NCBI GenBank assembly: GCA_965644315.1 | Contig: CBFFRQ010000040.1 | Span: 124,001 to 188,000, forward strand | DNA: 64,000 nt | From: Caecitellus pseudoparvulus | Taxonomy: Eukaryota > Protista > Bigyra: Bicosoecida | Direction of reading: 5' to 3' | Part shown: positions 16,647 through 49,593 of the stretch, piece by piece | How the letters are laid out: every line of letters begins with the position of its first letter | Numbering within the stretch: position 1 is the first letter of the stretch | The notes under the pieces: generated by a model | The model's input: the letters and a program-made list of their open reading frames with translations, nothing else | Told to the model about the DNA's origin: nothing | Databases searched by the model: none | Made by a program: the position numbers and the translations under genes

Positions 16647-19600
16647 CTAGCGACGAGAGTTGCTCTGAGGTCTAGATGCGGTAAATGACACTCTATCCCG
16701 CTCGTCAAAACTGTCGAATGAGACTGGTCTGTTGGCATTCAACAGCGCCAGACCAGATGGAAGGTCTCTTCGCGCTGCCTGTTGGAGTGGGCTTTGAGGA
16801 ATCAACGAAGGTAAACGGGGCTTAGCCACAGCTCTTCCTGACTTTTGGGAGCCACGTGCGGCTAGTGGAAGCACCGGCGAGTCTGGAGCGCGCCGAGGCT
16901 GAGCAGTGACAGGTTTCTGTGTTTGCTTTGAACCATGACTTGGCACCGAAACACTGTCACGTTTGAACAACGGATTTGTTCCCTGAAGCCTTCGCCCGCT
17001 TTCCACGCCAGCAAGAGGGTTCGGCTGCAGGGGCAGCTTGGCACTCTTGCTTGCACTGCTGTGTGATGGCAATCGGGCTGCACTGCCAGACGGCATGGCA
17101 ATCAGGGTTGACCCAGAGTCACCCAACACACCCGCCATGCCAGTCTCCACGGTCAGTCCCTGCTCCTGTACCATGCCCAGCACGCTCAGCACATCCGACG
17201 CTGGGCGGGACGCTGCCGGCCGCACCTCGCCTCGCCGCACACACCGCTGCACCAACGCCCACACAATGCTGCCCACACCCGGCACCTGACTGTCAGCCAC
17301 ATCGCCCAGCTGACCACTGCTGCCGCTTCCTGCACTGGCTGGCCCCAGCTCAGGCAGCAGCGCTCGCAGGCGCCGACCCACACGTGCCAGCAGCGCTCGC
17401 ACTCGGCCACTGTACCCTCGCGCAACAGCCATCGCCAGCCACAGCAGCACAAGCACATGCCCGATGCCGGAGATGATGGATGCAGCAGTGGCCAGTCCGC
17501 CACCCGCCGTGCCCACACCCACACATACCACCTGCACGAGGATGCCGCCATGGGCCAGGACATCCAGGTCGCTCAGCTCAGTCAGCGCCCATGGCCGACG
17601 GTGCTGCACGAGGGCCATGCTGCCCGCCATACCCACACCCACACACACGAGGCGAGCCACGATGGATGTCGTCATGCTGCCCATGACTGCCACCAGCACG
17701 ACGAGGGCCATTTGCAGGGCAGGGAAGGCGTGTGTGGGCAGGAAGCGCCCGGCACCCCAGCAGGCACGCTCACTGGCGCGTGCTGCAGCGACAGCTGCTG
17801 CCTGGAGTGCCTTATCTGCCCCAGTGATATGTGCGAGGCGCACCGCTTGCTGTGGCGTGTACTGCATGCGGTACCCTTTGCTGCAAAAGCCTGGTACCGA
17901 GGCAGTCCGCGGCAGCAGGTGTTCCGACCTCCGCCACTGCCGCCACGCCAGCACACTCAGCACACCCACCGTGGCAGCCAAGCACTGCAACGTCAGTGAG
18001 GCAGCATAGCCGCCCACGTCAGCCGCATGCCCAGCGACATCGTCCGGACTGGACATGCCACGCCAGACTGGCTGCAGCCCCACGACGCGGGCCTGGCCCT
18101 GGATGACACTGGGCACCACCTGCATGTATGCCGCTGGCGCCAGGAGCAGGAGGATGGTGGTCCAGGTCTTGCCAGGTGCCGGTCGAGCGCACCACAGCAC
18201 AGAGACACTGATGCACAGCAGCACGCCGCCGTACACGGCCATGGTGATGTTGGCCATGTCATGCGGGCTGCGGCTGTCGCCTCCGCCCACGAGACACCCT
18301 GCGCTTGGCATTGTCGCGACGCCAGCTCGCCCTGTGAGTGCGCCCAGGATGCCCAGGACATCCACCCCTTGGGCTGACTCAGGCTGGTTTGCGTACATGG
18401 TGCTGTTGGGCAGCATGACCTGCTCTTGGCCTGCTCGCCAGGGCTGGGCCATGCCACAGACGTCGGCCCAGTGGCCCAGGGTGTGGGCTGTCGCTTGCAG
18501 TGTGCCTGGCATGTCGGCAGCCAGCAGCGCCACCTGCCCCGCCATGCCGATGTACCACATGGCCAGGCGCAGGCCGCCACTGAACAGGGTCGTCGCGACA
18601 CGATCTGGAGCACGCGCATACCCGTGCACTGCGAACAGGGACATGGCCAGCCCCAGCAGTATCTGAGCGACTGTCGTGCCAGCCTTGACGACATCTGGTG
18701 TCACGCCACTGTAGGGGCACTGGCGGCATGTGGTGCAGGGTGAGGTAGCAGCCCAGCCGTCGGCACAGGCTTGGCATGCGAGGCCGCGGTGTCCAGGCTG
18801 GCAGCCCGTGAGGAGGCGCACGTCGGAGTGGGGGAGGCATGAGCCTGGTCGAGGGCAGGGGAGGATGAGGGCTTGTGGTGATGAGCAGTGATCAGTACAA
18901 GCGAGCTGTGCTGGGAAGCGGGGGACGGTGTAGGGGGCTACTGAGGGGTTGATGGATGGGTGGGTGAGTGCCCATGCTGATCGGGGTGGAGGTGGCTGGG
19001 ATGCGGGGGTTGGGCTTGGTGTTGTTGATACGCTGGGCATTGTTGCGGATGTGGTGGTGGGAGAGCTGCTGGGGTTCGGAGACGGCGATGGGGACTTCGT
19101 GGGGTTGGGTGATGGCGAAGGCAGTGGCTCGCGTTGCCCTGGTACACACCCGACATCCACAACGGTCGGACAAGTACCAGCTATACAACTCCAAACACCG
19201 TGTAACGTGCTTCCCACACAGGAGCCCTCGCCAGTGCATGAGATGCTGCAGTGGCCAGTCAACGTTGGGTGAGTGCAGAACAAGCTGGAGTTAGTGCAAG
19301 AATAGCTCCCTGAGCAGTTCACAGATGCACCGTCCTGCAAGAGAAGCGTGTCGTCGTCCGAAGCGGTTGAACAGCTGAGTGGTTCATCACAGTTAAGTGT
19401 TGTGCTGTTAAGAGGGGATGCTGTGGGGCAGCCTCTGCACATGCAGAGCTGGGGGCTGGGCTGGAGCGGGCCATCGTGCAAGGTGCACTTGATTGCTGAG
19501 GGGGGGGTGGATGGGCATCCTCCTGCAAAGGGGGAATCGATGACGAAGAGTTGCGAGAGGCCAGGTAGAGAGTTGAACACGCCTTCAGGCAGGCTGGTCA

Positions 19601-22217
19601 GAGCATAGTTGTAGCTTAGGTACAGGTCTGTGAGATTGGTGAGGCTGTCAAAGACTCCAGGCGGCAAGCTAGTCAGCGCAGCATTGTTACTCAGGTCCAA
19701 GACTGTGAGGCTGGTGAGGCTGTCAAAAACTCCAGGCGGCAAGCTGGTCAGCGCAGCATTGTTACTCAGGTCCAGGCCTGAGAGGCTGGTGAGGCTGTCA
19801 AAAACTCCTGCCGGCAAGCTGGCCAGAACAGCATTGTTGCTCAGGTCCAGGAATGTGAGGCTGGTGAGGCTGTCAAAGACTCCTGCCGGCAGGCTGGCCA
19901 GCACAGCATTGTTGCTCAGGTCCAGGAATGTGAGGCTGGTGAGGCTGTCAAAGACTCCAGGCGGCAAGCTGGTCAGCGCAGCATTGTTACTCAGGTCCAG
20001 GCCTGAGAGGCTGGTGAGGCTGTCAAAGACTCCAGGCGGCAAGCTGGTCAGCGCAGCATTGTTATTCAGACTCAGGCCTGAGAGGCTGGCGAGGCTGTCA
20101 AAGACTCCAGGCGGCAAGCTGGTCAGCGCAGCATTGTTGCTCAGGTCCAGGCCTGTGAGGCTGGTGAGGCTGTCAAAGACTCCTGCCGGCAAGCTGGCCA
20201 GAGCAGCATTGTTGCTCAGGTCCAAGAGTCTGAGGCCGGTGAGGCTGTCAAACATGCCTGGCGGCAAGCTGGCCAGGTCGGGCCCGCGAATGGCCAGGCG
20301 TGCGAGGCTGGCGAGACCACCAAACACTCCTGCCGGCAAGCTGGTCAGAGCAGCATTGATGCTCAGGCTCAGATCTGTGAGGCTGGTGAGGCTGTCAAAG
20401 ACTCCTGCCGGCAAGCTGGCCAGAGGAGTGCCGTCCAAGCTCAGATCTGTGAGGCTGGTGAGGCTGTCGAACACGCCTGGCTGCAGGCTGGTCAGAGGAG
20501 TGCCATCCAGGCTCAGATCTGTGAGGCTGGTGAGGCTGTCAAAGACTCCTGCCGGCAAGCTGGTCAACGCAGCATTGCTGCTCAGGCTCAGATCTGTGAG
20601 GCTGGTGAGGCTGTCAAAGACTCCTGCCGGCAAGCTGGCCAGAGGAGTGCCGTCCAAGCTCAGATCTGTGAGGCTGGTGAGGCTGTCGAACACGCCTGGC
20701 TGCAGGCTGGTCAGAGGAGTGCCATCCAGGCTCAGATCTGTGAGGCTGGTGAGGCTGTCAAAGACTCCTGCCGGCAAGCTGGTCAACGCAGCATTGCTGC
20801 TCAGGCTCAGATCTGTGAGGCTGGTGAGGCTGTCGAACACGCCTGCCGGCAAGCTGGCCAGAGGAGTGCCGTCCAGGCTCAGATCTGTGAGGCTGGTGAG
20901 GCTGTCAAAGACTCCTGCCGGCAAGCTGGTCAACGCAGCATTGCTGCTCAGGCTCAGATCTGTGAGGCTGGTGAGGCTGTCGAACACGCCTGGCTGCAGG
21001 CTGGTGAGAGCATTGCTGCTCAGGCTCAGATCTGTGAGGCTGGTGAGGCTGTCAAAGACTCCTGCCGGCAAGCTGGTCAACGCAGCATTGTTACTCAGGT
21101 CCAGGAATGTGAGGCTGGTGAGGCTGTCAAAGACTCCTGCCGGCAAGCTGGTCAACGCAGCATTGTTGCTCAGGCTCAGATCTGTGAGGCTGGTGAGGCT
21201 GTCAAAGACTCCTGCCGGCAAGCTGGCCAGAGGAGTGCCGTCCAAGCTCAGATCTGTGAGGCCGGTGAGGCTGTCAAAGACCCCAGGCGGCAAGCTGGTC
21301 AACGCAGCATTGTTGCTCAGGCTCAGATCTGTGAGGCTGGTGAGGCTGTCAAAGACTCCTGCCGGCAAGCTGGTCAACGCAGCATTGTTACTCAGGTCCA
21401 GGAATGTGAGGCTGGTGAGGCTGTCAAAGACTCCTGCCGGCAAGCTGGTCAACGCAGCATTGCTGCTCAGGCTCAGATCTGTGAGGCTGGTGAGGCTGTC
21501 GAACACGCCTGCCGGCAAGCTGGCCAGAGGAGTGCCGTCCAGGCTCAGATCTGTGAGGCTGGTGAGGCTGTCAAAGACTCCTGCCGGCAAGCTGGTCAAC
21601 GCAGCATTGCTGCTCAGGCTCAGATCTGTGAGGCTGGTGAGGCTGTCGAACACGCCTGGCTGCAGGCTGGTGAGAGCATTGCTGCTCAGGCTCAGATCTG
21701 TGAGGCTGGTGAGGCTGTCAAAGACTCCTGCCGGCAAGCTGGTCAACGCAGCATTGTTACTCAGGTCCAGGAATGTGAGGCTGGTGAGGCTGTCAAAGAC
21801 TCCTGCCGGCAAGCTGGTCAACGCAGCATTGTTACTCAGGCTCAGATCTGTGAGGCTGGTGAGGCTGTCGAACACGCCTGGCTGCAGGCTGGTAAGAGCA
21901 GTTGCGCTCAACGTCAGACTTCGAAGGCTGGTGAGGCTGTCAAAGACTCCTGCCGGCAAGCTGGCCAGCACAGCATTGTTGCTCAGGTCCAGGAATGTGA
22001 GGCTGGTGAGGCTGTCAAAGACTCCTGCCGGCAAGCTGGTCAACGCAGCATTGCTGCTCAGGCTCAGATCTGTGAGGCTGGTGAGGCTGTCAAAGACTCC
22101 TGCCGGCAAGCTGGCCAGAGGAGTGCCGTCCAGGCTCAGATCTGTGAGGCTGGTGAGGCTGTCAAAGACTCCTGCCGGCAAGCTGGTCAACGCAGCATTG
22201 CTGCTCAGGCTCAGATC
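16647..22217 (-). pseudogene. 3' part of interrupted LRR receptor-like gene (LRRs, Cys-rich cap, Ser/Pro/Thr stalk, EGF-like Cys cluster, multiple TM helices, cytoplasmic tail)
   Basis: LxxLPxGVFDSLTSLTxLxLxxN repeats followed by Cys-rich and hydrophobic segments. The repeat pattern breaks abruptly at 22219/22220 and resumes at 48613. Confidence 0.85.
19540..22217 (-). repeat. Near-identical 72/75-bp coding tandem repeats (~36 LRR units)
   Basis: Recurring gtgaggctggtgaggctgtcaaagactcctgccggcaagctgg core with higher-order duplicated blocks. Confidence 0.95.
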
Positions 22218-22320
22218 TGCCGTCGTGAGATTTTCGGGGGGGGGGCGACATGCCTTTGGGGGGTTGCCCTCGAAGGGGTATAGGGGGTGGGGCAAACTCC
22301 TTTTTGTGGGGGTGGGGCAG

Positions 22321-22364
22321 ACACCCACTTTGGGGGGGGGTGGTGCAAACACCCACTTTGGGGG
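22321..22364 (+). repeat. Subterminal direct repeats ACACCCACTTTGGGGG x2
   Basis: Copies at 22321-22336 and 22349-22364, near the left transposon end. Confidence 0.6.
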
Positions 22365-24029
22365 TACCCAGGCGAACTGGTAGCAGGCTGTGCATTGCAG
22401 GCAGGGGGGGTCTACGGCACCTTGCAGCTCGCGCTGGCCATCAAACTGTCACCAGGCGGTGTCGCGCACTGCAATGCATGCCCTGCGTCCACGGCACCCG
22501 CCTCGGAGCACTCACGCCTCAGGCCACGCGCCTTTGCCGCCGCCCGCCTCTGCCGCCGCGCACCTCTCAGTCCGCCAAGCACTGTGGGGAGCCTCTCCAA
22601 GTCATTCAGGGTGGTACACCAGTTATTCTGCAGCATCGCGTACCGGAAGGCCTGCGCAGGTGGGGGGAGGAGGCTCGCGTGGCTCTGTACCTTGACACCA
22701 GCAGTCACGACGTAGCCGCTCCCTGCACAAGGCACCAGCGCAGCAGCCCCTCGCACTCACCCCATTTTGGCTGGCACCGTGGTGGGACTTGCCCCTCATG
22801 ATCAGGTTGCCGGGTCTTCCATTCCTGTGAAGGGGCGGCAGTGGCTCGGGTGATGGTGTGGGAGTGCCAGGCACCGGCTGCAACGCCAGGCATGGGGACG
22901 AGCGCATGACGGCCACGCACCGCTCAGGCCATCCCAGTACAGTATGCGGCATTCAGGGAGATACTTGGATCATCCAAGTGGGCCCTGCGAATGGCCAGAG
23001 GGGTGGTGTGTGTGCGTCGCGGGTGAGGGAGTTCGCCTGCGCAGAGGGGTGGCGTTGGAGGCAGGCAGCACCAGCGCCCGGCGCATGCAGTCCCACCCAC
23101 CCTCACAAGAAACTGCCGCGCTTTCAATAGGTACCGACAAACATCATATCAATGGTGTCTTTTCTGCGGCGCTGGGGCTGGCACGAGTGTGCGGGGGTGC
23201 CTTGGAACATGACACGGCGTTTCGCGCAAACGCCGCGCATAGGCGGGTGCTACCCCTGTCCCAACGCACCGCTGAAGCCATCCATGGAGCACAGTCCGCG
23301 ATGCAACAAGGTCAAGTTTCTCGAAAGGGCATGCTCTGGCAGGGGGAGCTCGGGTGGGGGGGCGCCTGCACGCAGAGGGGTCTGTGTGTGACTCGGCTTT
23401 GCAACGCCAATGCTGAACCCGCGTGCTAGGCCCCTGCACGAACCTGCAGCCTGCGATGGCGTCTGCAGGCCATGAGGTGTACAGCTCTTCACGACACTAT
23501 CCGGCTCACTGCGCAGGAGAGGGCGACAGGCGGGAGCGGAGGAGGTGACATGTCCCATGCCGTTGCAGGCGAAACGCCCGGCACGCAAGCTGTGCGCCGC
23601 TCACTTCTGTGTACTCGTGCAGCGACAGGCAGGCCGAGGCTAAGGCCATGTGCAAACGTACGCTACCATGGGGACTTGACTTGCACCGTTCAGATTTGCG
23701 CTGGGATTAGAAAGTGTCCCTATGCGGACGGGGCGGGGGGGGGGGGGGGTGGGTTCTTCTGATGCTGGTCCGCTGCTTCCTTGTCACACGGGCAAAGGGC
23801 CAGGCGGGGTGCGCTTCCAGTGGTGTGGTGGTTGCATGGGCCACAGGGGTGCAGCTGTTCCTCAGCGCCAAGCTGGGGGTGTTGCACGCAAGCGAACGCT
23901 GGCACGCCGGAAGAGCTTGCATTGCGCTGACGGGCGTGCGGTGGGGATATGGGTGGTGTTGCGGTGTCACCAGCCTCAGAGCAGGCATACGCACACGATA
24001 TGGATGCCCTGTACCGAGGGTACTTATCA

Positions 24030-26103
24030 TCATTCCAACGACATGTTTCTCGGGGGCGTTGCGTCGCCGCGCGGGCGCTTTGTGCCGCGGGACCTTCCGC
24101 ATCCCAGCACCGCCCCGCCGTCTCCGAGCACACCGGAAGCTTCGGCACCAGGCTCATGCTCAGACTCGGAACCTGAACCCGAGCCTGAATCCGATCCCTG
24201 GCCCGGGCAGGGGCCCAGCTCGGCACTGCCGTCAGTGCTGACCACGGGGTGCTGCGCAAGCGCTTCCTTGGCACATGCTTGGGCCAGCTTCGAACGCTCA
24301 CGGGCATCCCTCACAAGTGTAGCGCGGAAGGCCCGGGTGACGAAGCCCCATGTGGAGGCGCTGGCCTCCTCCCCGCGCAAGAAGGTCCACAATGGCCCGA
24401 GCACGGCGCCGATAGTGTACAGCTGGGCGGCGGAGAGCTTGTGCCACTCGCACGTGTGAGGGAACGGCGGTGTGCTGCGTACAAAGCTGTACGCTTGGTT
24501 GCGCACCGTGTCCACCAGATGCACCGCAGCTTCATACAGCGCCCCCAGTGCCGCCGCTGTGACGACGTCCTGGCGCCTCACGGACACACCCGCGTCCTTG
24601 GCGAGCCCCCTGCGCAACTCCTGCTCCAAGGAGACTGCCACGAGCGTGGCGCAGTCAAACGGGGCGTCCGGTGTGGCAAAGTCGCGCACCGCAGCAAAGC
24701 GCGCAGTTTGCCTGCGGCGCACTTCCTCCATCGAGAGCACGTTGCGCCCTCGATCCGCCCAAGTCAGGTAGCGCAGAGCATCCTGGGCAGCTTGCCCCGT
24801 GCCGTCCAAGCGCGAGCTGATGTCAAGGAATGCGTCGTGGGCCGGCTGCTTTCTGTGTCGCGTGCAGACCAGGACCTCCGCCTCCCTGGCGGGGCAGAGC
24901 ACAGACACCGCCTCCATAAAGGCTTCGTCCTTGGACAGTGCGCTGGGTTGGAAGAGCCGCGACACTGCATCGCGCAGCTTCTTGCACGCCTCGCGCACCT
25001 GCCCGGGGTCTGCCTGTCGCATCAGGTCTTTGGCGTCGTCCCAGGGATCAGCGCCATCTGCCAGCTGGATTGACAGCGCCTGTTCCAGTGCGTTGGGCAT
25101 GCCGTGCATGAAGGCCAGAGGGAAGTCTAGCTCCGGCGTTTCAAGGTCGGCGTCCGCTATCAGCGTTTCGTAGACATCGTCAGGGGAGCCAAGTGGCCCT
25201 TCCGGTACCCGGAGGGCTGCGTTGGTGCACATGAGTGTGAGAGTAGTCGGCGGCACCCCCCACCCCGACCCTGCCTTTAATTGTGCAAACGTCCACGAAC
25301 CCTGTCCAGGGAGCCTCTGCCTGCCGATGGCGTCCATGTGATTGGACATGGACAGACGGCTGTACTGGACACTCGGAGAATTCCGACTGGACTTGCCGTT
25401 CTTGTCAAGTGCGCCCTGCAGCTCCCTGATCTGAGCTTGCATCTGGGCCCTCTCCTTCACACTGTACAGGTACAACACGTACAGTTGGTAGATCAGCGCC
25501 CGATCCAACGCCAAGCTCGCCTGTGCCGCTATCACCCTGTCGGTCAGGCTTGGAGCCTCGAGGGCTGCCGCGTTGGGAACGCGGGGCAGGACGGCCGCGG
25601 CAAGGAAGCTCCTGGCCTCTCCACTGGAGTGGTCTGCTGCGGAAAGGGGGCACAGATCGCGTGTAAACTCAGGCGGTGTTGCGTTGAAGCCGCACGCCTC
25701 GACACGGGCAAAGGCTGGTGGGAACGCCATCCTAGTCTCGCGTTGGTATGTCACGCACCACCACCACCGGGCATGTCCAATTCATGCGGCGGCTTAGCAA
25801 GCTGGCCCAGCACTTCTGCGCGAAGGAACTCTTCTGCGGCGCGGGCAAGGACTGGGCGGTAAGCACTGGTGCTTTTGTGCGCGCGTGGTGGGGAAGCGTT
25901 TCACAGCGCAGCACACCATTTGCGTTGCTGGCGCCCGCCAACCAAACCTTGCGCTCCGGGATGGGCAAGGGCTTGCCCTTTTCAAAGGCAATCCTTTGAA
26001 GATGCGCATGCACGCCCTGGAACGCTCGCTTTGCAGAGTCATGCTCGGCGGCGGTGGCTTGAGGCACTGAGCTCGTGCTGACTTCGCTGCGTTGCTGAGC
26101 CAT
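24030..26103 (-). CDS. Transposon accessory gene of unknown function (probably spliced)
   Basis: ATG at 26103 (123-aa ORF) overlapping a 574-aa ORF in another frame; divergent from the transposase; no recognised domain. Confidence 0.5.
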
Positions 26104-26510
26104 GGTGTCTGGGTGGGGAGACGGGTGCTTGAGAGCTGAAGGTGGCCGAGAAGAGCAAGTGACTAACAGAGGGGGGGGGCCTGGAATGTGCCTTTGCGCC
26201 TTGCTGGCTTACAGAGCAGCGTGAGGCACCCCCCTCCCCCTTGCACCCCCCTGCACCCCCCTCTCAAGGGAAAACGCAGCAAGCTTCCTTGTATCCCTCG
26301 CGTTCCAGGCTTACAGGGGGACTTTTCACAAACGCTAGGGATCGAATGCACATCAACCACTAGCGCAGGTGTGCTTCTTGCCGCCGCGGTGGTGTTGGTT
26401 GCGTTGTGAAGTCCGGATTGGTGTGCCCCCTAGGCACGTTTCAGATACTGAAACGCAACTCGAGCTCTCCCTCCGGACCAGGCCCTGCCAAGCAGCATCC
26501 CACACCCACG

Positions 26511-29778: not shown

Positions 29779-29797
29779 TATGTGACTATAATAATTA

Positions 29798-39912: not shown

Positions 39913-39958
39913 TTATATTTATGGAAATATAGTTTTTTTCTCTTACTATAATATATTT

Positions 39959-40522
39959 ATGGAAATGGAAAATGCATTAATTTTAGGTGCTGGTTTGGTA
40001 TCAATTGGTGCTAAAACCGCTTATTCATGTTTTGGAAAATCAAAAAAGAAGAAATGGTCTAAAATTAGATTTGGTGCTATTGTTATGAGTTGCATGACTG
40101 GAAAATCTACACTGGCAAACAAACTTAAAGCAGATTCAGGTGTCTATTTAATTGATGTTGGCCAATCTGTCGCTGTTGATGGTGATACAAACGCAGATAT
40201 TAATTATTTAATGAAAGCTAAAGAATATGTAGATAAAGTAAAGAAAGATATGAAGGATTATAAACTAATTTTGATTTGTTCCTCTATTGGTGAAGCAAAA
40301 TATCTCGGTGTTGATGAATCAAACATTGCTGTTCTGACACCTTCAAACTCGCTTTTTAAATCAATATGTGAAGGTCGTAATACTGCAAATGTAGCAGAAA
40401 TGGAACGTAAAAGAATGGAATTAATTAGTGCTTGTAGTGAGGACGTACTAAATATTTTTGATAGTTATGATACTCTTTATTCTGTCATTCGCACCACGTT
40501 CAAATTGCGTAATAAATTCTGA
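39959..40522 (+). CDS. P-loop kinase-like protein with hydrophobic N-terminus
   Basis: IVMSCMTGKSTLA degenerate Walker A followed by YLIDV. Confidence 0.55.
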   Translation: MEMENALILGAGLVSIGAKTAYSCFGKSKKKKWSKIRFGAIVMSCMTGKSTLANKLKADSGVYLIDVGQSVAVDGDTNADINYLMKAKEYVDKVKKDMKDYKLILICSSIGEAKYLGVDESNIAVLTPSNSLFKSICEGRNTANVAEMERKRMELISACSEDVLNIFDSYDTLYSVIRTTFKLRNKF

Positions 40523-40596
40523 AAAGGACTTTCAAAGAACTTTTATTTAAAACAAAATATAAATAATTATATTTTGCTTCTTAAAAAACTATATTA

Positions 40597-41070
40597 TTAT
40601 ATTATCATTGTTATTTTTTTCATTTTAGTCCATTTATCAAAATCTAATTTATCTTGCCTTTCAATTCTCTTTCTTCTAGCTTCTCTATCCCTTCCTTTTC
40701 TCCTATATTTCTTTTTCAATCTTTCATAAATATCTTTCCAATGTTCTAATGTAATTTCCTTTCTTAGTCTGTATGTGTATAGTCTGTTGTACTCTCTCCT
40801 AAAGTCTTTATCATCTTCTTCAGATAATCGCTTAATTCTACATCTTATTAAATTACAATCACTCTTGTACTCATCTATTTTTACGCAATCATGATAGACA
40901 TTAAATAAATGTTGTAAGTTCTCTTGTCTTGTTCTCAAACTCATATCAATTCTATCTTCTAATGGAGAATCTTTTACTTTATAAAGAATGTAATCAAACA
41001 TATTCATACATGTTTCAAAGTCTTTTTTAAATTCTGTCATTGAATAAACAGTTTTTGAAAATTCTGTCAT
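40597..41070 (-). CDS. Hypothetical basic viral protein
   Basis: 157-aa ORF. Confidence 0.5.
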   Translation of the reverse strand: MTEFSKTVYSMTEFKKDFETCMNMFDYILYKVKDSPLEDRIDMSLRTRQENLQHLFNVYHDCVKIDEYKSDCNLIRCRIKRLSEEDDKDFRREYNRLYTYRLRKEITLEHWKDIYERLKKKYRRKGRDREARRKRIERQDKLDFDKWTKMKKITMII

Positions 41071-41090
41071 TTATATATTACTTATATAAT

Positions 41091-41270
41091 ATGATTTCAA
41101 GATCAAAGCAAAGGAGAAAACACAATGGCATCTGGTATTCCATTATGACGAAAGCCATTCAAGAAAAAAGAGAAAAAATCATTGAACAGAATACAAAAGA
41201 TCTCATTGAAACTTTTGGAATAAAAATAATTATTGATGTATTGGATGATCAAAATAAAATGAAAGAATAG
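41091..41270 (+). CDS. Small hypothetical viral protein
   Basis: ATG at 41091 is divergent from the 41070 ATG; a hairpin follows the stop. Confidence 0.35.
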   Translation: MISRSKQRRKHNGIWYSIMTKAIQEKREKIIEQNTKDLIETFGIKIIIDVLDDQNKMKE

Positions 41271-41325
41271 TACTTGAAACAAAATATAAATAATTATGTT
41301 TTGCTTCTTGAAATAATAAATTGAG

Positions 41326-41634
41326 TTATTTTTCTGATTCACCAATAAGTTTTAATCTCTCATTAATTGCATCATTAATTTTTTCAAATCCTGATTTAGT
41401 AAACTTATAAACAAGTGATACTCCAATATCTGGAAAATTTAGTATTACATTATAGCTTGCTGAATCTACCTCTACACAGCTCTTAAAATCATATGCATGA
41501 ACGTTAGTTATAAATAAGGGAGTTGTGAATGTTAGAATTAATTCTTTATCTTCAAATCTGATAGATGTGTTCTGTCTGGGACAAGTCAATAGCTTTCCAT
41601 TTAAAGTACAATATCTCGCATTAACAATTTTCAT
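41326..41634 (-). CDS. Hypothetical viral protein
   Basis: 102 aa; conserved upstream motif at 41660-41673. Confidence 0.6.
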   Translation of the reverse strand: MKIVNARYCTLNGKLLTCPRQNTSIRFEDKELILTFTTPLFITNVHAYDFKSCVEVDSASYNVILNFPDIGVSLVYKFTKSGFEKINDAINERLKLIGESEK

Positions 41635-41675
41635 TTTAGTATATCCTTTAAAACGTATTTTATCCTTAGGTTATT

Positions 41676-41960
41676 TTATTTAATTATTAATTCATCTTCC
41701 GAATCTGATTCATAGTATTCATCATAGTATTCTATGTATTCCGGATAGCTATCTTGAAATGATGTAAATTCATCATGTAAATTATCAATATCTACTTCAT
41801 GGGCTGGATTATCCTCCAATTGCAAGAACAATGTATCCATTTTCTTTTTATACCTTTTGATGTCCTGTATGACATATTTCATTTTTCGTAGTTTCTCTTC
41901 GTCCGTTTCATTGATCATCATTTTCTTAACTTTCTTTATTTCTTGTGTGAATCTATTCAT
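41676..41960 (-). CDS. Hypothetical acidic-tailed viral protein
   Basis: 94 aa; conserved upstream motif at 41979-41992. Confidence 0.6.
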   Translation of the reverse strand: MNRFTQEIKKVKKMMINETDEEKLRKMKYVIQDIKRYKKKMDTLFLQLEDNPAHEVDIDNLHDEFTSFQDSYPEYIEYYDEYYESDSEDELIIK

Positions 41961-42012
41961 TACGTCTTAAAACGCATTTTATCCTTAAGTTATTTTATTA
42001 ATTAATTATATA

Positions 42013-43023
42013 ATGAGCAAAATAAAAGAGTTAATATCTGAACTGGGAATTGATGAGACTTTTACTAAACCACAACCTAAAGAAACTCAGTTTACAAAAG
42101 TTAAAGGGGTAATCTATCCCGAAGAAGATTATAATTTTCAAGCTGATTTATTAGAGCTACCAAAGACCAAAGAAGGATTTAAATATTTATTAGTTGTTGT
42201 TGACTTATGGACTAATGAATTTGATATTGAACCACTAAAAACTAAAAGACCAAATACTGTTTTAGGTGCATTTAAAAAGATGATTAAACGAAAACATATT
42301 AATTTACCAGAAGCAAGCATAAGAACAGATGGAGGAGGAGAATTTAAGGGTGATTTTGCCAAATTTCTATTTGATGAATCCATTCTGAAAAAAACAGCAA
42401 TGAAAGGAAGACATCAGCAAATGGCAAATGTGGAAAGATTAAATAAAACACTTGGAAGACTATTTAATGGATACATGAACAAAAAAGAAGAAGAAACTAA
42501 TAAACCTTATAGAGAATGGACAGATATTTTATCTCAGGTAAGAACTAAATTAAACAAAATAAGAAAAGTTGAACCAAACAAATTTAAATTTGCAAAAATT
42601 AAGATGATCTCTCCAAAATTTAAAATAGGTGATCTTGTATATTATAAGCTGACACCATCTCAGGCCGAAGATTCATTAGGAAATCCCGTTCAAGGAGGAT
42701 TTAGAACAGGAGATAGAAGATTTAGTAAGAAAGCTAGAAAAATTAAACAAATACTGGCATATAAAGGAAATGTTCCAGTACGATATCAATTAAATTATTT
42801 ACCAAATGTATCATTTGCAGAATCAGAACTTAAACTAGCCAGTGGTGAAGAAACATTTGAAGTCAGAGAAATAATAGATGATAGGAGAGGACAATATAAA
42901 GTATGGTGGAAAGGTTTTCCTAAGAAAAATGCAACTTGGGAAAACAAAATAAGAATTAAAAAACAAGTTCCAGATATAGTAAAGGAATATGAAGAAAAAA
43001 AGAAGAATCAATCCAAAAAGTAA
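42013..43023 (+). CDS. Retroviral-type (rve) DDE integrase with C-terminal chromodomain
   Basis: FQADL...KYLLVVVD, IRTDGGGEF, VERLNKTL (D,D,E); FEVREIID....YKVWWKGF....ATWE chromodomain. Confidence 0.93.
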   Translation: MSKIKELISELGIDETFTKPQPKETQFTKVKGVIYPEEDYNFQADLLELPKTKEGFKYLLVVVDLWTNEFDIEPLKTKRPNTVLGAFKKMIKRKHINLPEASIRTDGGGEFKGDFAKFLFDESILKKTAMKGRHQQMANVERLNKTLGRLFNGYMNKKEEETNKPYREWTDILSQVRTKLNKIRKVEPNKFKFAKIKMISPKFKIGDLVYYKLTPSQAEDSLGNPVQGGFRTGDRRFSKKARKIKQILAYKGNVPVRYQLNYLPNVSFAESELKLASGEETFEVREIIDDRRGQYKVWWKGFPKKNATWENKIRIKKQVPDIVKEYEEKKKNQSKK

Positions 43024-44246
43024 ATTGTTTGTGAGCTTTTAATATCTATTGTCTTATTGTGGTACTTATGATCCTGACAAATAAACTTTGTTATTACTTC
43101 ATCATGATTCTTTTTACATATGAAACCATCAATATATATCCTTACTACATCATCAAGAATTGGAGCTATTAAATTTGACATCTTAGCTCTACAAGTGGCA
43201 GGTAGAAAATATCCCATTCTTGCAGTTGTATATAAGAATATACGCTCTCTTTTTACTGTATAATACACACGTTCACCTTTCTTGTTTACATAAGACTTAC
43301 TAAGAATTGGTAAAATATTCTTTTGCTCCTCTTCGGTTTTGCTTTGAATACTTGATAGTTTTCTATAAATTGGCCGATGTTTAATCTTTTGATATCCAAA
43401 CATATTATTTAACATAAACTTAATAAGAGGGTTCTTTGATAGCTTATCATTTGCTTTCATGAGTATATCTTGATACCATCCAAAAATAATATGTGAATCT
43501 ACTAATGTATCATTATCATATATTAAAGCATTTGGTTTACCATCCTGTATAATTTCCCATTTAAGACTTAGACCGACCCAATCACGAAAGAATTTCAGTT
43601 TATTCAATGTAAAATGATCATAATAATTCTTCTTAGAAAAGCCAATAAGAAATTTTGCTCTTGGATCTGATGAAACAACTTTAATATGATAATATCCATA
43701 TTCAAACTTTTCGGGTGTCTCTGTTAATGTTTCAAATCTTCCTCTTTTTACTGGAAACTTAAAGTTTCTTTTTCTACATCCATAAGTCATTGAATAAAAT
43801 TTCTTTTGATCATAAGCATATACTTTACCTTTGTATGGTGTACCTGCTATTAAACCTGAATCATATGATTGATCCATAAATTTATATTCTTCATATGTCA
43901 TATGTTCATAGGATTTCAAATTCTTCTTATCTTTGCGTGTATTGATCAGTAAAGTATTCATTAGTGAGGTATTACATCCATCCTCTTTAAAGAATCTTAG
44001 ATCCAGTCCTTTAAATAACATTCGTTTAGGATTTCGTGTACTTGGTATATTGGATAAGTATTTTTCTAATTCATTTGAATATTCTTGAATCTTTTCATAA
44101 TACTCTATGAGTCCGTTTTCATCTGCATCTATTCCAAAGCTCTTTAACATCTCATACCCATTTGGTTTTTTGTAGCTCTTCTTTACCTTTCCTCCATCAT
44201 ATGAAAAATAAGTTCTTGATACTGAGTCTTTATAATATACTATCAT
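43008..44246 (-). CDS. Short, divergent protein-primed family-B DNA polymerase
   Basis: Motif A YDQKKFYS...KFP, motif B KFMLNNMFG, motif C RIYIDGF; no exonuclease motifs seen. Confidence 0.7.
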   Translation of the reverse strand: MIVYYKDSVSRTYFSYDGGKVKKSYKKPNGYEMLKSFGIDADENGLIEYYEKIQEYSNELEKYLSNIPSTRNPKRMLFKGLDLRFFKEDGCNTSLMNTLLINTRKDKKNLKSYEHMTYEEYKFMDQSYDSGLIAGTPYKGKVYAYDQKKFYSMTYGCRKRNFKFPVKRGRFETLTETPEKFEYGYYHIKVVSSDPRAKFLIGFSKKNYYDHFTLNKLKFFRDWVGLSLKWEIIQDGKPNALIYDNDTLVDSHIIFGWYQDILMKANDKLSKNPLIKFMLNNMFGYQKIKHRPIYRKLSSIQSKTEEEQKNILPILSKSYVNKKGERVYYTVKRERIFLYTTARMGYFLPATCRAKMSNLIAPILDDVVRIYIDGFICKKNHDEVITKFICQDHKYHNKTIDIKSSQTIYFLD

Positions 44247-44289
44247 ATATTATAAAATACTAATCTTATCTTTAAGTCATTTTATTATT

Positions 44290-44634
44290 TTATTCTTCCA
44301 CTAACCATGAAATAGTTAATGATCTTACAGATTGAAATTTTGATTGTACTTTTACTTTACCATTTAAGTACTCATCTAAATTATCCAATGTTTCGTCAAT
44401 TGTTGAACCATACCCTTTAATATTCATAATACCATCTTTACGAAGTCCAAGTACAACAAGTTCATCAACATCATACTTTTTATCTATCTTGGGAACAATA
44501 TGACCATATAGTTCTTTAATGCTATCAAAATTTATTTCTTCTCCATCCTTTGCTTCAATATACATATCATGTTGAGTATGTCCTCCTACCTTCTCTTCAT
44601 TTCTTCTTACAATATACTTATTCATATTTACCAT
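44290..44634 (-). CDS. Hypothetical viral protein between helicase and polymerase
   Basis: 114 aa; upstream motif at 44660-44673. Confidence 0.6.
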   Translation of the reverse strand: MVNMNKYIVRRNEEKVGGHTQHDMYIEAKDGEEINFDSIKELYGHIVPKIDKKYDVDELVVLGLRKDGIMNIKGYGSTIDETLDNLDEYLNGKVKVQSKFQSVRSLTISWLVEE

Positions 44635-44678
44635 ATCTAATATATCGTAAATACGTAATTTATCCTTAGGTCATTTAA

Positions 44679-46382
44679 TTAAAAAATTCCTAAATTATCA
44701 TTTTCTTTAGTTATTAATTTTCCGTTCTTACTTGCTTTTGTTGCTTTCTTTTTGTATTCTTTAATTTCCTTTTCTGTTTTCTTTTTTTTTGCTTTTGCTT
44801 TGACTTCCTTTTCTTTCTTGAATATTTTCTTGTTTTCAGATAGTTTAATTTTTTTTGGTTTTGATTTTTTTGATTCTACTGTTATTGGTTTTGGTTTCTT
44901 CCCTTCTAAAATTGACATAAACTCTTTAAACTTTTCAGGATGTTTTGCATACAAAACTTTAATATAATCCATGTCATCAACTGATACCTCTTCTTCTGGT
45001 GCTTCATCATCTTCTATTTCTGGGTCATACCATCTTTTACTTATAAATATTTTGCGTAATGTTTCAACAGGTACAATAAATTTTCTCTTTGTTGAACCAT
45101 TTACAGATACAGTAGTTTTAATAATACCTATCTTTTTTAAATCTTTGTGTAATCTATGAAGGGTCATTTTAAATTTTGCGTTCGTATTGTATTCATCCAA
45201 TAATTGCTTGCATTCTATATCCATATCAGCATTATTAAATATAAATTCATCTTTGATATACTTGTATAAAGGAGGAAGAGCAGATATAATTTTTTCATCC
45301 CTTGTTCTTGAATTTGGCATAATATCAAAATTAAAATCTTTGTTTTCTTCATAAAGCTTTCTCATATGATTAAAATATGCAGGTATTACCCCCTTACAAT
45401 TCATAGCCTTAATGACACTTTGGAAATACTTAAAATCACCTTTACGATGGTCTGATACATCGGGGCATATATACCGCTCTTTGTTTGATTGACTCAAATT
45501 AATTGATCCTTCAATATTTGTCGTTATAATTATGTTAAATGTATTTGTTTGAGTGTATCCTACACTGTACATATCACGGCAATCAAATTTATCTTCAGTT
45601 ATTAATCCTTTCAGTTTATCTTGTATAAGTAAATTTCCTCTTAGTTCTGGTAGCTCATCAATATTTACTAATACAACCCCTTCTAATGGTTTTGTGTACT
45701 TTGTTATAGTTTCGGTTGAGGATGTTTTAAGCATTCTTTCGCCAAGCACACGATCTAAGAAGTTTAAATATATGCCTTTTCCGGTTCTTTCTTCTGACAA
45801 CATAAAGATTGCTTTTCGCACCTTTACACCAGCAATTGAAAAAGCAAAAAATAAACGTACATATTCAAACATAGCAATATTTCCCCCACATAATACTTCC
45901 TTAATATGATTATCAATAACTTCAATTTCTTCTAAAAAATCTTTCTCTTTTATGTCTTTACATTCACTTAAATCAAAAGGTAAAGGTTTAACCATATTTA
46001 AATATTTTTGAATTAAGGCTTTACCCTTAATATTTCTTGTAATGGATACAATATCATCATCTGTATCTGGAAATATACCATATTGTACATTATTGGAACA
46101 ATCACAAAATTCAGAACTTACCATGTAATCAAACAAATTGAATTTGGTTTGTCTATTTGATTTTAAATTGTTCTCTTCAATATAATCTTGATTGGTTAAA
46201 TCTTTTGGAATATATTGTCTCAAGTCTTTTTGCTTGAAGTTATCATATTTCCCAGTTTGTACATTCTTAAAAAAATAACTATCTGTTGTCTTAAAAAAGT
46301 ATTTTTGCACATACTCTTTGACATCTTCTATTTTGTTTTCATTAAGTAAATTCTTAATTGTCATTACACTGAATACGACCAT
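44679..46382 (-). CDS. D5-like superfamily-3 helicase
   Basis: Walker A-like SEERTGKG, Walker B LVNIDE, KLKGLIT, motif C FNIIITTN; Lys-rich C-tail. Confidence 0.85.
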   Translation of the reverse strand: MVVFSVMTIKNLLNENKIEDVKEYVQKYFFKTTDSYFFKNVQTGKYDNFKQKDLRQYIPKDLTNQDYIEENNLKSNRQTKFNLFDYMVSSEFCDCSNNVQYGIFPDTDDDIVSITRNIKGKALIQKYLNMVKPLPFDLSECKDIKEKDFLEEIEVIDNHIKEVLCGGNIAMFEYVRLFFAFSIAGVKVRKAIFMLSEERTGKGIYLNFLDRVLGERMLKTSSTETITKYTKPLEGVVLVNIDELPELRGNLLIQDKLKGLITEDKFDCRDMYSVGYTQTNTFNIIITTNIEGSINLSQSNKERYICPDVSDHRKGDFKYFQSVIKAMNCKGVIPAYFNHMRKLYEENKDFNFDIMPNSRTRDEKIISALPPLYKYIKDEFIFNNADMDIECKQLLDEYNTNAKFKMTLHRLHKDLKKIGIIKTTVSVNGSTKRKFIVPVETLRKIFISKRWYDPEIEDDEAPEEEVSVDDMDYIKVLYAKHPEKFKEFMSILEGKKPKPITVESKKSKPKKIKLSENKKIFKKEKEVKAKAKKKKTEKEIKEYKKKATKASKNGKLITKENDNLGIF

Positions 46383-46514
46383 TTGCTATTATAATTACAA
46401 TACGAAATTTATCTTTAAGTAATTTTTTTATTTTTTAAATTCTCCTCATAATTATTATGAAGATAATTCTATAAAACTCAAAGGGGGAAAACACTAAACC
46501 CCTATACTATACTC

Positions 46515-47081
46515 TTATACTTTATTTTTTAGTATTGCGTTCATGTATCTACTACGTGAATTTTTAGTTCCACTTTTCATATGTCTACTAATATACTCAT
46601 GTATAATGAACCATAACCAATTAAATTGATCATCAGTTAAGCAATTATATCCATAAAAATGCTTTTTCTTTTCTAACTTAAACGCTACAAATGAAAAATT
46701 GTCTTTACTCACACAATGTTCACCATATGTTGTATTAAATTCATTCCTTTCATCATATAAATTAATATTTTCACTTTGTTGAAAATAATCATTTAGTAAA
46801 TCTGAAGATAAAACTTTTCTTAAATTGTAATAAAGGTCTATATTTAACTTAATATGATTTAAATATTCTTCATTACTTTCTTTTTCATGAGTAAAATATA
46901 ACATTATGTGTATATAAAAATCTTCATTTTTTAGGTCTTCTACATCTTGAATTTCAATAATAAAATTCCTTACAAAAGATTTACTACTACTAAATGTTAG
47001 TTCCTTTTTATAGTATGATTTTCTATTTTTCATAGAAATTTTCGGTTTCATACTCATATATATTACTAATACATAATTCAC
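46515..47081 (-). CDS. Hypothetical viral protein
   Basis: 188-aa ORF starting at the inner edge of the right TIR. Confidence 0.55.
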   Translation of the reverse strand: MNYVLVIYMSMKPKISMKNRKSYYKKELTFSSSKSFVRNFIIEIQDVEDLKNEDFYIHIMLYFTHEKESNEEYLNHIKLNIDLYYNLRKVLSSDLLNDYFQQSENINLYDERNEFNTTYGEHCVSKDNFSFVAFKLEKKKHFYGYNCLTDDQFNWLWFIIHEYISRHMKSGTKNSRSRYMNAILKNKV

Positions 47082-47090
47082 TTTTATGTT

Positions 47091-47506
47091 ATTTATTTTT
47101 TAATATTGCGTTTAAATTGTTCTTGAAGGGGACACACACCGCAATTAAGAGAGATATTTACTTACTCATTCACTAAAAGTATAACACATGCGATTAAGAG
47201 AGACTTTTCCTATATCTTATATTTTCTTTCTCAAAGTCTATTTTAAGAAAATTATAATAATATTTAAAAATCCATAAAAAAAAGAGAAATTAAGGAAATA
47301 GGAAATAATGTTTTAACTTATTACTTTTTTATATTTCCTATAATTTACTATTTCTTGTTTTTAAATATACCTTAAATAATATATATTTTATTGACTATTA
47401 AATTACTATATAATGAACCATTAAATATAGTGGCTTTAGCCACGCATTACGTATGTATCTACCGTGGGGTGGTGTTTTACACTAAACCACCACCATCCCT
47501 TTTTTT
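47091..47506 (-). repeat. Right terminal inverted repeat of the virus
   Basis: Reverse complement of 29363-29778. Confidence 0.95.
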
Positions 47507-48034
47507 CGGGTGGGGCATTCGGGCAGGTTGTACAGGGTGCAACTAAAGCCTGACGACGTCGTGGATGGACAGGAAGCGGGACACCGCCCCCCCCTCACGC
47601 TCTGCACAGGCGTGAGGCTGCGGTACCCCTCTGGCAACACCAACTGGCTGCCATTGCCGGGGCCAGCCGACGTCATGTGCATCATCCACTGGGACGGCAA
47701 GCGGTTCATGGAGCGGACACTGGTGGACGTAGCCGTGGCCCTGGCGCCGCTGAGGGACGATGCACGCAGTTACCTGCCCGATGAGACCCTCCTCTTGTGT
47801 CGTCACCTGAAACTGGGCCCTTCTGAGGTGCAGGGGTGGGCACGGGTAAACCACTCGCCGGAGGACGAGGCGCAACCGTGGGTGCTCGTGACGGGGGGTG
47901 TGGTAGCTGGCCCGGCCGTTGTGCACGAAGCGCCTTGGATCGCGAAGGGCAAGCCAGGGGAAGCTTCTTACCGCTTCCACTGGGCGCTGCAGGGCCCCGT
48001 CGGCAAGCAGCGCAGCGCCAGCGAGGACACGTGA
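47507..48034 (+). pseudogene. Plavaka-type transposase, 3' part
   Basis: In frame with the 5' part once the virus and one CGGGT are removed (...WLRERR-VGHSGRLYRV...). Confidence 0.8.
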
Positions 48035-48612
48035 GACGGCTTCGCCACTCAGCCCAAGGCAGCCCAAGACAGCCCGTCAAGGGGGGGGGCTGCATCGGAC
48101 AAATGAATCGTGCATGGCGCTTAAAATGCAATGCAAAGGCGGTAAATCGCCTTCATACGCGCCAGCGCTGCGGTGCAAGGGAGTTGGCGCAGGCAGTTTG
48201 CCGCCCGGCTGTGGAGGCGGAAATTGGCGCCCAAAATGGCCCACTTTGCGGCGTTCTCCTGCGCTATGCAAGGCGAACCATCACGCGTGAGTGCAATAAT
48301 CTGAATCTAAGCATGAAACTTAGCCCCCTCTGTGACTTTCGCCAGAATGACCAGAAAATTTGATCAGTCTGCCTCCCTCGGCCCCCGACCCTGCCCTCCG
48401 TCGCCACCACGCCAATCCACCCCTTCCCATTGCGCGGCCCGCCGCGGCTCCCGCAGCGTGAAACGAGTTTGACACAATGTACACATGAAATAGTGTCATT
48501 TTGACTTTTTCCAACTTCTGACGCGCCCGGGAAGGTGTGCCCACCCCCCCCGCACACGGGAACGAAGTGGTGTTGGAGGGGTGTACGGGGGGGACAGAAA
48601 ATCTCTTGACTG

Positions 48613-49593
48613 TGTGAGGCTGGTGAGGCTGTCGAACACGCCTGGCTGCAGGCTGGTAAGAGCAGTTGCGCTCAACGTCAGACTTCGAAGACTGGTCAGG
48701 CTGTCAAAGACTCCTGCCGGCAAGCTGGCCAGCACAGCATTGTTGCTCAGGTCCAGGAATGTGAGGCTGGTGAGGCTGTCAAAGACCCCAGGCGGCAAGC
48801 TGGTCAGCGCAGCATTGTTACTCAGGTCCAGGCCTGAGAGGCTGGCGAGGCTGTCAAAGAAGCCAAGTGGCAGGCTGCTCAGGCGGTTGCTGCTCAGGTA
48901 CAGGTGTGCGAGGCTGGTGAGGTGGTCAAAGAAGCCAAGTGGCAGGCTGCTCAGGCGGTTGCTGCTCAATTCAAGGTCTGTGAGGCTGGTGAGGCTGTCA
49001 AACACACCCGACGATAGGCCGATCAGAGCATCATTGCTGCTCAGGTTCAAGTGTGTGAGGCTGTAGAGGCTGTCAAACACGCCCGGCGGCAGGCTGGTCA
49101 GGTTGTTGCTTCCCAGGCTTAGGTCTGTGAGGCCGGAAAGTCTGTCAAACACGCCCACAGGCAGGCTTGCCAGGGCATCATTGCTGGTCAGATCCAGATC
49201 TGTTAGACTAAGGAGGCTGTCAAACACGCCATCAGGCAGGCTTGCCAGGGCCTTGTTGTTCTTCAGATCCAGTGTCAATAGGCTGTCGAGACCTCCAAAC
49301 ACGTTCGGCGGAAGGCTGGTCAGAGCGTTGTTGTCGTAAATCCCAAGGTATGCGAGGCTTGTAAGACTAACGAATGCACTCGCGTCGATGCCGGTAATGC
49401 TACTGAATGATACAGTCAGGCTGGCACCTGTGCACGAATTGCAATCAACAAGCACGTCACCGACAACAGTACAGCAAGCAGGAACTCCACCCGCCACCCT
49501 ACGTAAGATAGACGACATGCAAGCAAGCCACAGCCACCCAAACCAACCCGTCCACCACTTCCTGCAACCCCATTTTGACCTGTGCACCACCAT
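48613..49593 (-). pseudogene. 5' part of the interrupted LRR receptor-like gene (signal peptide, LRRNT-like cap, ~10 LRRs)
   Basis: Hydrophobic WFGWLWLAC leader, VPACCTVVGDVLVDC cap, same LRR consensus as 19540-22217. Confidence 0.85.

What the first reader, a model, noticed from the sequence alone, without database searches (positions are those of the whole stretch)
16647..49593. Three-level nest: virus inside a transposase gene, inside a DNA transposon, inside an LRR receptor gene
Seen in sequence: deleting 29363-47511 restores a continuous ~1,124-aa transposase (26511-48034). Deleting 22218-48612 restores an in-frame ~2,180-aa LRR gene (..FDSLTSLT|DLSLSSN..). Both sets of TIRs and TSDs are intact and no other lesions are visible, so both insertions look recent. 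Inference: the virus disabled the transposase but now lies between intact transposon ends, so a trans-acting transposase could move the 26-kb composite and spread the provirus without its integrase. The nesting known from Cafeteria EMALEs is the reverse (Ngaro retrotransposons inside virophages).
Basis: partly seen in the sequence, partly recalled or inferred. Interest (0 to 1): 0.9.

Follow-up and report, generated by a model that had tools for sequence, protein, structure and literature searches.

The report
Virus inside transposon inside host gene
An 18-kb virus-like element sits inside the transposase gene of an 8-kb jumping gene, which itself splits a host leucine-rich-repeat gene in what is likely a marine protist; the nest is plain in the sequence, but it is likely an ordinary pile-up of two separate insertions, with no sign yet that the transposon carries the virus around.

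Summary
The nest is real in this sequence. An 18,144-bp, 28.5%-GC polinton-like virus (29363-47506; 417-bp inverted ends; CGGGT duplication; double-jelly-roll capsid, rve integrase) splits a 1,124-aa Plavaka/CACTA-like transposase. The transposase belongs to an 8,244-bp DNA transposon (22220-48612; TG duplication) that splits a 2,183-aa LRR-transmembrane gene. The virus-free transposase exists in 7 of 7 public runs laid and as a database protein. The transposon's right end has other flanks, a related virus has another flank, and the transposon's left arm is spliced in one run. So both elements look independently mobile. No contig joining transposon to virus appeared, though the tables were cut. 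Three corrections: the virus keeps its own intact integrase; the insertion lies downstream of the DDE core, so 'disabled' is unproven; the transposon's inverted repeats match at only 13 of 16 bases. Viruses nested within host transposons are already reported (Halocafeteria preprint), and transposon-carried viruses have a precedent (Teratorn). Verdict: a clean but ordinary nested insertion; hitchhiking is untested, about 10%.

The parts
48613..49593 (-). Host LRR-transmembrane gene, 5' part (327 codons: hydrophobic leader, about 9 LRR units)
   Evidence: (LRR_8 E 5e-57)
16647..22217 (-). Host LRR-transmembrane gene, 3' part (about 34 LRR units, Cys-rich and Pro/Ser/Thr-rich stretches, about 8 hydrophobic segments, tail)
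22218..22219 (.). Left copy of the 2-bp target duplication TG
48613..48614 (.). Right copy of the 2-bp target duplication TG
   Evidence: right end also marked by loose ends
22220..48612 (.). CMCT-like (Plavaka/CACTA-like) DNA transposon, 8,244 bp without the virus, 26,393 bp with it; 64% GC; 16-bp inverted ends matching at 13 of 16
   Evidence: other right flanks in X1 and X10
22283..22360 (+). Three subterminal G-rich repeats of about 25 bp; one inverted copy of the core motif near 48548
22652..23443 (-). Four GT..AG introns (22652-22760, 22825-22920, 22985-23100, 23366-23443) in the transposon's left arm, downstream of ORF2
   Evidence: joints in run X15, checked against the window
24030..25730 (-). 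Transposon ORF2, 566 aa, no family found
   Evidence: covered by X15 contigs
26511..29362 (+). Transposase, N-terminal part: C2H2 finger and the whole likely DDE core (D401, D528, E830); reads 9 codons into the virus and stops at 29393 (960 aa)
47512..48034 (+). Transposase, cut-off C-terminal part (173 residues)
29358..29362 (.). Left copy of the 5-bp target duplication CGGGT
47507..47511 (.). Right copy of the 5-bp target duplication CGGGT
29363..47506 (.). Endogenous polinton-like virus, 18,144 bp, 28.5% GC, 20 ORFs covering 95% of the DNA between its ends
29363..29778 (+). Viral left terminal inverted repeat
47091..47506 (-). Viral right terminal inverted repeat (no substitutions, two 1-bp homopolymer differences)
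30064..30861 (+). Alpha/beta-hydrolase (lipase-like, GHSLG)
33854..34579 (+). A32-like packaging ATPase
   Evidence: Pox_A32 E 7.7e-6, above cut-off
34626..35954 (+). Major capsid protein, predicted double jelly roll, 442 aa
   Evidence: (pLDDT 83)
36036..36878 (+). Likely minor capsid protein (by position and size only)
   Evidence: no family hit
36927..39590 (+). Fibre-like protein with phage tail-fibre repeats
42013..43023 (+). rve integrase with C-terminal chromodomain, uninterrupted
43008..44246 (-). 412-aa protein with degenerate PolB-like motifs (by eye): possible palm-only pPolB
   Evidence: no hit
44679..46382 (-). Superfamily 3 helicase (DUF5906)
   Evidence: (E 8.5e-10)

Best explanation
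A polinton-like virus lies inside the transposase gene of a DNA transposon that lies inside a host LRR gene, and this likely arose from two separate insertions, each likely made by the element's own enzyme. Step 1 (shown: 2-bp duplication, other right flanks; inferred: enzyme and order): a copy of an active, low-copy Plavaka/CACTA-like cut-and-paste transposon landed in one repeat unit of the LRR gene and knocked out that allele. Step 2 (shown: 5-bp duplication, uninterrupted integrase, a relative at another flank; inferred: near-random targeting): the virus integrated with its rve integrase into the transposase gene, after the DDE core. Such a hit costs the host nothing more, so it would be kept by selection more readily than a hit in a working gene of this gene-dense genome. 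The virus likely stays a complete provirus that can leave by its own route. The transposon copy is now likely non-autonomous; it could in principle be moved in trans, but nothing shows that it has been.
For: Virus-free transposase in 7 of 7 runs laid and as protein P0002. Transposon right end joined to other flanks in X1 (3 contigs) and X10. Viral end joined to an unrelated 28-letter flank in X13. Close relatives of the virus cover 29 or 30 of 30 bins in X1, X3 and X4, in runs where the transposase is empty. Integrase uninterrupted with D-D-E motifs; 5-bp duplication fits the 5-6 bp known for mavirus and polinton integrases (PMC8547959 passage). Same passage: no sequence specificity of EMALE insertion, 18 of 29 sites near repeats, 15 in host genes. 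PLVs and virophages nested within host transposons reported in Halocafeteria.
Against: The order of events cannot be read from one locus: virus-first, then transposition of the composite, leaves the same sequence. No contig with the virus-free transposon at this LRR site was seen. None of the listed runs appears to be the window's source (best share of words 0.82; the viral relatives differ at full depth), so absence of the composite there says little about the source strain. The tables were cut (173 and 57 loose ends, 2,254 and 331 pieces not shown). An 8-kb low-copy family is a small target for a random hit.
Confidence: 0.72

Rival explanations
1. Hitchhiking: the 26.4-kb composite is, or has been, moved as one unit by transposase from virus-free copies, and the LRR insertion may itself be such a jump.
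For: Both transposon ends and subterminal repeats are present; virus-free transposase exists and the family is transcribed and spliced in X15; CACTA elements of 16-20 kb and the 180-kb Teratorn show that large loads can move (PMC6431247 passages; PMC5601938 passages).
Against: No composite junction in the displayed rows of 7 runs; no second copy in the window; left end begins CC and the ends match at only 13 of 16; transposition efficiency is said to drop above about 6 kb of cargo; the virus has its own integrase, unlike Teratorn's herpesvirus.
Confidence: 0.1
2. Guided nesting: the integrase's chromodomain reads methylated histone H3 on silenced transposons and steers the virus into them, so the nest reflects targeting rather than chance plus survival.
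For: The chromodomain matches MPP8, CBX7 and HP1 (best E 5.9e-6) and keeps F, W, F where MPP8 has F, W, Y; that these form the methyl-lysine cage is established knowledge, recalled. Chromodomain targeting is known for LTR retrotransposons (Gao et al. 2008; title seen only in a reference list). Halocafeteria PLVs are often in repeat regions.
Against: One event only. The family is transcribed in X15, so it is not always silent. EMALEs with rve integrases showed no sequence specificity and often hit host genes. The one other flank seen (X13, 28 letters) does not lie on the stretch of transposon laid.
Confidence: 0.13
3. Assembly artefact: near-identical LRR repeats and multi-copy elements were stitched into a false nest.
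For: The LRR units are near-identical (166 self-matches); no read spans a filled junction; two homopolymer differences in the viral ends suggest residual long-read errors.
Against: Both junction pairs carry exact duplications of sites known to be single in empty alleles; a chimera would not make a 5-bp and a 2-bp duplication in register. At most the number of LRR units may be wrong.
Confidence: 0.05

Closest known systems
Endogenous PLVs and virophages nested in host transposons of Halocafeteria seosinensis (bioRxiv 10.64898/2026.07.28.741278; passages and sections 7, 8 read)
   Same: Low-GC integrating virus with inverted ends and target duplication, nested within host transposable elements of a protist; rve integrase.
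   Different: There the transposons are MULEs and LINEs, often remnants; here a Plavaka/CACTA-like element with both ends, a split but otherwise whole transposase, and live virus-free sisters. Its supplement (Fig. S5) could not be seen.
Mavirus-related elements, pMVRE group 1 (PMC13215967; passages and section 7 read) and Cafeteria EMALEs (PMC8547959; passages)
   Same: rve integrase with chromodomain, DUF5906 SF3 helicase, possible palm-only pPolB, long inverted ends, about 30% GC in a GC-rich host, insertion into coding DNA.
   Different: Capsid is 442 aa and folds closest to PBCV-1-type capsids, with virophage capsids at rank 33 and below; no maturation protease found. So a PLV-type capsid with a mavirus-like replication and integration module.
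Teratorn, piggyBac-herpesvirus fusion of medaka (PMC5601938; passages)
   Same: A whole viral genome between the ends of a cut-and-paste DNA transposon.
   Different: Teratorn has 30-40 plus about 5 fused copies, an intact active transposase and no stand-alone form; here one composite, a truncated transposase, and both partners found apart.
Plavaka and EnSpm/CACTA transposons, CMCT clade (PMC12730594; passages and figure legends)
   Same: DDE transposase with weak Plavaka similarity, 2-bp duplication, short inverted ends, CA..TG at one end, second ORF.
   Different: Ends fit neither PlavakaA (TGT..ACA) nor PlavakaB (CATCA..TGATG); C(1)C instead of C(2)C; the families in the passages read are fungal; no relative except its own family was found.

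Membership tests
Polinton-like viruses | Double-jelly-roll major capsid protein | tested here: met
   Model from 16-sequence alignment, pLDDT 83; Foldseek PBCV-1 capsid E 1e-15, TM 0.62
Polinton-like viruses | A32-like packaging ATPase | tested here: met
   Pox_A32 26 bits against cut-off 22.8
Polinton-like viruses | Minor capsid (penton) protein | tested here: inconclusive
   280-aa ORF right after the capsid gene; no hit; not folded
Polinton-like viruses | 14-40 kb, terminal inverted repeats of hundreds of bp, 5-6 bp target duplication with rve integrase | tested here: met
   18.1 kb, 417 bp, 5 bp; rve E 3.7e-7 but 30.8 bits, under the 32.6 cut-off; criteria from PMC12220804 passages
Canonical Polintons/Mavericks | Full-length protein-primed PolB and maturation protease | tested here: not met
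   No PolB or protease family hit in the 19 viral ORFs scanned, of 20 (the 59-aa ORF at 41091 was not scanned)
Virophages (mavirus/EMALE) | Virophage-type capsid and cysteine protease | tested here: not met
   Virophage capsids rank 33 and below; no protease hit
pMVRE group 1 | DUF5906 helicase, rve integrase, chromodomain | tested here: met
   features from PMC13215967 section 7
pMVRE group 1 | Palm-retaining truncated pPolB | tested here: inconclusive
   Three PolB-like motifs by eye at residues 145, 276, 371 of the 412-aa ORF (motif likeness recalled); no hit
CMCT clade (CACTA/EnSpm, Plavaka) | DDE transposase similar to Plavaka or EnSpm | tested here: inconclusive
   Pfam Plavaka E 0.0046, 16.7 bits against cut-off 26.3; ESM Atlas Plavaka and Transposase_21 clusters at 0.91-0.93 with under 170 shared features; D, D, E placed by eye
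CMCT clade (CACTA/EnSpm, Plavaka) | 2-5 bp target duplication | tested here: met
   TG; one locus only
CMCT clade (CACTA/EnSpm, Plavaka) | CA..TG termini (most members) | tested here: inconclusive
   Right end is TG, left end is CC
CMCT clade (CACTA/EnSpm, Plavaka) | C(2)C and H(3-4)H motifs between second D and E | tested here: inconclusive
   C546-S-C548, H644 and H806 present, Q810 where a further H is expected; by eye, no alignment
PlavakaA / PlavakaB | TGT..ACA or CATCA..TGATG termini | tested here: not met
   against PMC12730594 passage
Teratorn-like transposon-virus fusion | Virus and transposon occur only fused, in many copies | tested here: not met
   Virus-free transposase in 7 of 7 runs; virus at another flank in X13
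Teratorn-like transposon-virus fusion | Composite moves as a unit | not testable with these tools
   No genome or long reads of the source strain

The most novel reading that the evidence does not exclude
A Teratorn in the making: an integrase-competent polinton-like virus has become cargo of a live CACTA/Plavaka-like transposon, and the 26-kb composite jumps by transposase supplied in trans (or by its own truncated but core-intact transposase), giving the provirus a second way to multiply in the host genome with no helper virus and no virion; the LRR insertion would be one such jump.
Probability: 0.1. Interest if true: 0.7.

Novelty: new member of a known kind. Interest (0 to 1): 0.33.

Why it matters
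As it stands it is an unusually clean snapshot of layered parasitism in a protist: every layer can be read, and empty forms are found in public data. It adds a capsid lineage with few relatives (17 hits among 1.84 billion representatives, one at 59%, the rest at 30% or less) and a live Plavaka/CACTA-like transposon outside fungi. It is a ready test system for whether a DNA transposon can spread a provirus, which would be the first step toward Teratorn-like fusions, and for whether chromodomain integrases of these viruses aim at silenced transposons.

Tried and rejected
No own genome is held, so copy counts, empty LRR alleles and composite copies could not be sought directly. Scans that found nothing: capsid in metagenome contigs and viral contigs, ATPase in viral contigs, transposase P0002 in metagenome contigs and viral contigs, viral end pattern in viral contigs; the capsid alignment had no stretch conserved enough to scan with. 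Single-sequence capsid fold failed (pLDDT 29). Capsid had no sequence hit in PDB, Pfam or PHROGs. Transposase homologue search gave only P0002 among 7,995 candidates scored. ORF2: no usable hit. The 412-aa PolB-like ORF: only chance-level PDB hits. 'Empty LRR allele' loose ends in X1 and X4 were not counted as evidence, since the same sequence occurs in many repeat units of the gene. Contig depths were not used as copy numbers. The host being Symbiodinium was rejected: a flanking gene is 98% identical to a protein labelled Symbiodinium sp. KB8, but the flanks are 64-65% GC with long intron-free frames against 48-52% GC for Symbiodinium genomes (PMC8045281 table passage); a co-cultured flagellate is likelier, unnamed. 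A no-duplication reading of the transposon ends (start 22218) was rejected because the ends pair only from 22220.
Full report
1. Observation. The window is 64-65% GC with a 28.5%-GC island at 29363-47506. The island has terminal inverted repeats of 417 aligned columns with no substitution and two 1-bp homopolymer differences, and CGGGT on both sides (29358-62, 47507-11). Without it, the frame from 26511 to 48034 is open for 1,124 aa. Around it lies a 64%-GC element, 22220-48612, with 16-bp inverted ends matching at 13 of 16, subterminal G-rich repeats (three left, one inverted right) and TG on both sides. Without it, the minus-strand frame from 49593 to 16647 is open for 2,183 aa: leader, about 43 LRR units, Cys-rich and Pro/Ser/Thr-rich stretches and about eight hydrophobic segments. 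'Receptor' is inferred from this layout.

2. Independent evidence. No genome is held. A search with 22000-31000 listed 24 runs, 20 holding part of it, the best at 0.82 of the words. I laid 7 of them, from 5 studies, all as assembled contigs. In one search (28700-48699; X1, X3, X4, X10) the joint 29357 to 47507, with 5 letters fitting both sides, stands in 4 of 4 runs. In one search (22120-29900; X1, X6, X13, X15) the transposase continues past 29362 into its own 3' part in 4 of 4. A database protein, P0002, runs through the site and differs at 11 of 1,124 residues. The transposon's right end goes on into other flanks in X1 (3 contigs, agreement 0.53) and X10. Close relatives of the virus cover nearly the whole element in X1, X3 and X4 but differ from the window at full depth; X10 has almost none. 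In X13 one contig joins the viral end to an unrelated 28-letter flank (short, so modest evidence). X15 skips four stretches that are canonical minus-strand introns, so the transposon family is transcribed there; the run's kind is not on record. No displayed row joins transposon to virus or LRR gene to transposon, but the tables were cut (173 and 57 loose ends; 2,254 and 331 pieces), contigs drop rare variants, and none of these runs seems to be the source. So the empty forms and separate mobility are shown; the filled junctions rest on the window alone.

3. The virus. Twenty ORFs cover 95% of the DNA between the ends. The 442-aa protein at 34626 has 17 hits among 1.84 billion representatives, folds at pLDDT 83 with 15 of them and matches the PBCV-1 double-jelly-roll capsid (E 1e-15); virophage capsids come at rank 33 and below. 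Also present: A32 ATPase, rve integrase with chromodomain, DUF5906 helicase, lipase-like hydrolase, DUF5754 and a fibre-like protein. No protease or full PolB was found; a 412-aa ORF has PolB-like motifs by eye only. This is a polinton-like virus whose replication and integration module resembles pMVRE group 1 (PMC13215967, section 7). Its integrase is uninterrupted.

4. The transposon. The transposase has a C2H2 finger and a weak Plavaka match below Pfam's cut-off; its nearest named ESM Atlas clusters are Plavaka and CACTA (Transposase_21) at 0.91-0.93. By eye the catalytic residues are D401, D528 and E830. The 2-bp duplication and the TG end fit the CMCT clade, but the ends fit neither Plavaka subgroup and the C and H motifs are degenerate (PMC12730594 passages). 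I call it Plavaka/CACTA-like, not a member of Plavaka. The virus cuts after residue 951: a 960-aa product would keep the finger and the whole DDE core and lose 173 C-terminal residues. Loss of activity is likely but not shown.

5. Host. A flanking gene is 98% identical to a protein labelled Symbiodinium sp. KB8, but Symbiodinium genomes are 48-52% GC (PMC8045281 passage), unlike this gene-dense 65%-GC DNA. Holders include marine metagenomes. The host is likely a marine flagellate that shares cultures with algae; it is not identified.

6. Mechanism. Most likely (0.72) two separate insertions: the transposon into an LRR repeat unit, then the virus, by its own integrase, into the transposon, where it does no further harm and is kept. 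The order is inferred, not shown. Rivals: chromodomain-guided targeting of silenced transposons (0.13), movement of the 26.4-kb composite in trans (0.10), misassembly (0.05). Hitchhiking is mechanically open, since ends and helpers exist, but the left end begins CC, the load is three times the normal size (efficiency is said to fall above about 6 kb of cargo, though 16-20 kb CACTA elements exist; PMC6431247 passages), and the virus needs no carrier.

7. Comparison with print. [quoted passage not shown] S5, is closed and may hold a case like this one). In Cafeteria, 18 of 29 EMALE sites lie near repeats and 15 in host genes (PMC8547959 passages). Retrotransposons inside PLVs are reported for cryptophytes (PMC12220804 passages). 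A virus carried by a DNA transposon is known as Teratorn (PMC5601938 passages). My searches (listings and abstract openings) showed no report of a PLV inside a CACTA/Plavaka-like transposase or of a PLV moved by a host transposon; the library lacks most subscription papers. Other papers seen: PMC10120064 (passages, section 7), PMC6911290 and PMC10945749 (passages); Gao et al. 2008 as a title only.

8. Verdict. Observation confirmed; interpretation partly supported. A new member of a known kind: a clean nested insertion with a little-sampled capsid lineage and a live Plavaka/CACTA-like transposon in a protist. Interest 0.33. If composite copies at other loci turn up (probability about 0.1), interest about 0.7.

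Noticed in passing
window 22652-23443 (-): Four canonical GT..AG introns are spliced in run X15 in the transposon's left arm, downstream of ORF2's stop; the spliced model has no frame over about 110 aa. A spliced 3' UTR or a non-coding RNA of the transposon.
   Followed up: partly
window 24030-25730 (-): Transposon ORF2, 566 aa, no family in Pfam, PHROGs or ESM Atlas, covered by X15 contigs; may be a TnpA-like partner.
   Followed up: partly
window 37391-38268: The middle of the fibre-like gene is replaced by other sequence in the X1 and X4 relatives (loose ends): a swappable receptor-binding part.
   Followed up: no
window 29783-30207: The left-end genes differ far more from the X1 relative than the core does, suggesting a mosaic virus family.
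   Followed up: no
window 42820-43020 (+): Integrase chromodomain keeps aromatic residues aligned to those of MPP8.
   Followed up: partly
window 39959-40522 (+): 187-aa viral ORF with a GKST P-loop-like motif, kinase-like by eye; no firm family.
   Followed up: no
window 40534-40595, 41262-41322, 41648-41691, 41967-42014: Short intergenic repeats within the virus, possible promoter or terminator motifs.
   Followed up: no
window 25527-29203: One X13 contig skips 3,675 bp of the transposon: a possible internally deleted, non-autonomous derivative.
   Followed up: no
window 53550-54965 (+): Host gene 98% identical to a protein labelled Symbiodinium sp. KB8 although the host does not look like a dinoflagellate: likely a co-cultured flagellate in that public assembly, which may also explain virophage genes reported from it.
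   Followed up: partly
window 61917-62487: Tandem Gly/Ser-rich repeat inside an ankyrin-repeat gene.
   Followed up: no
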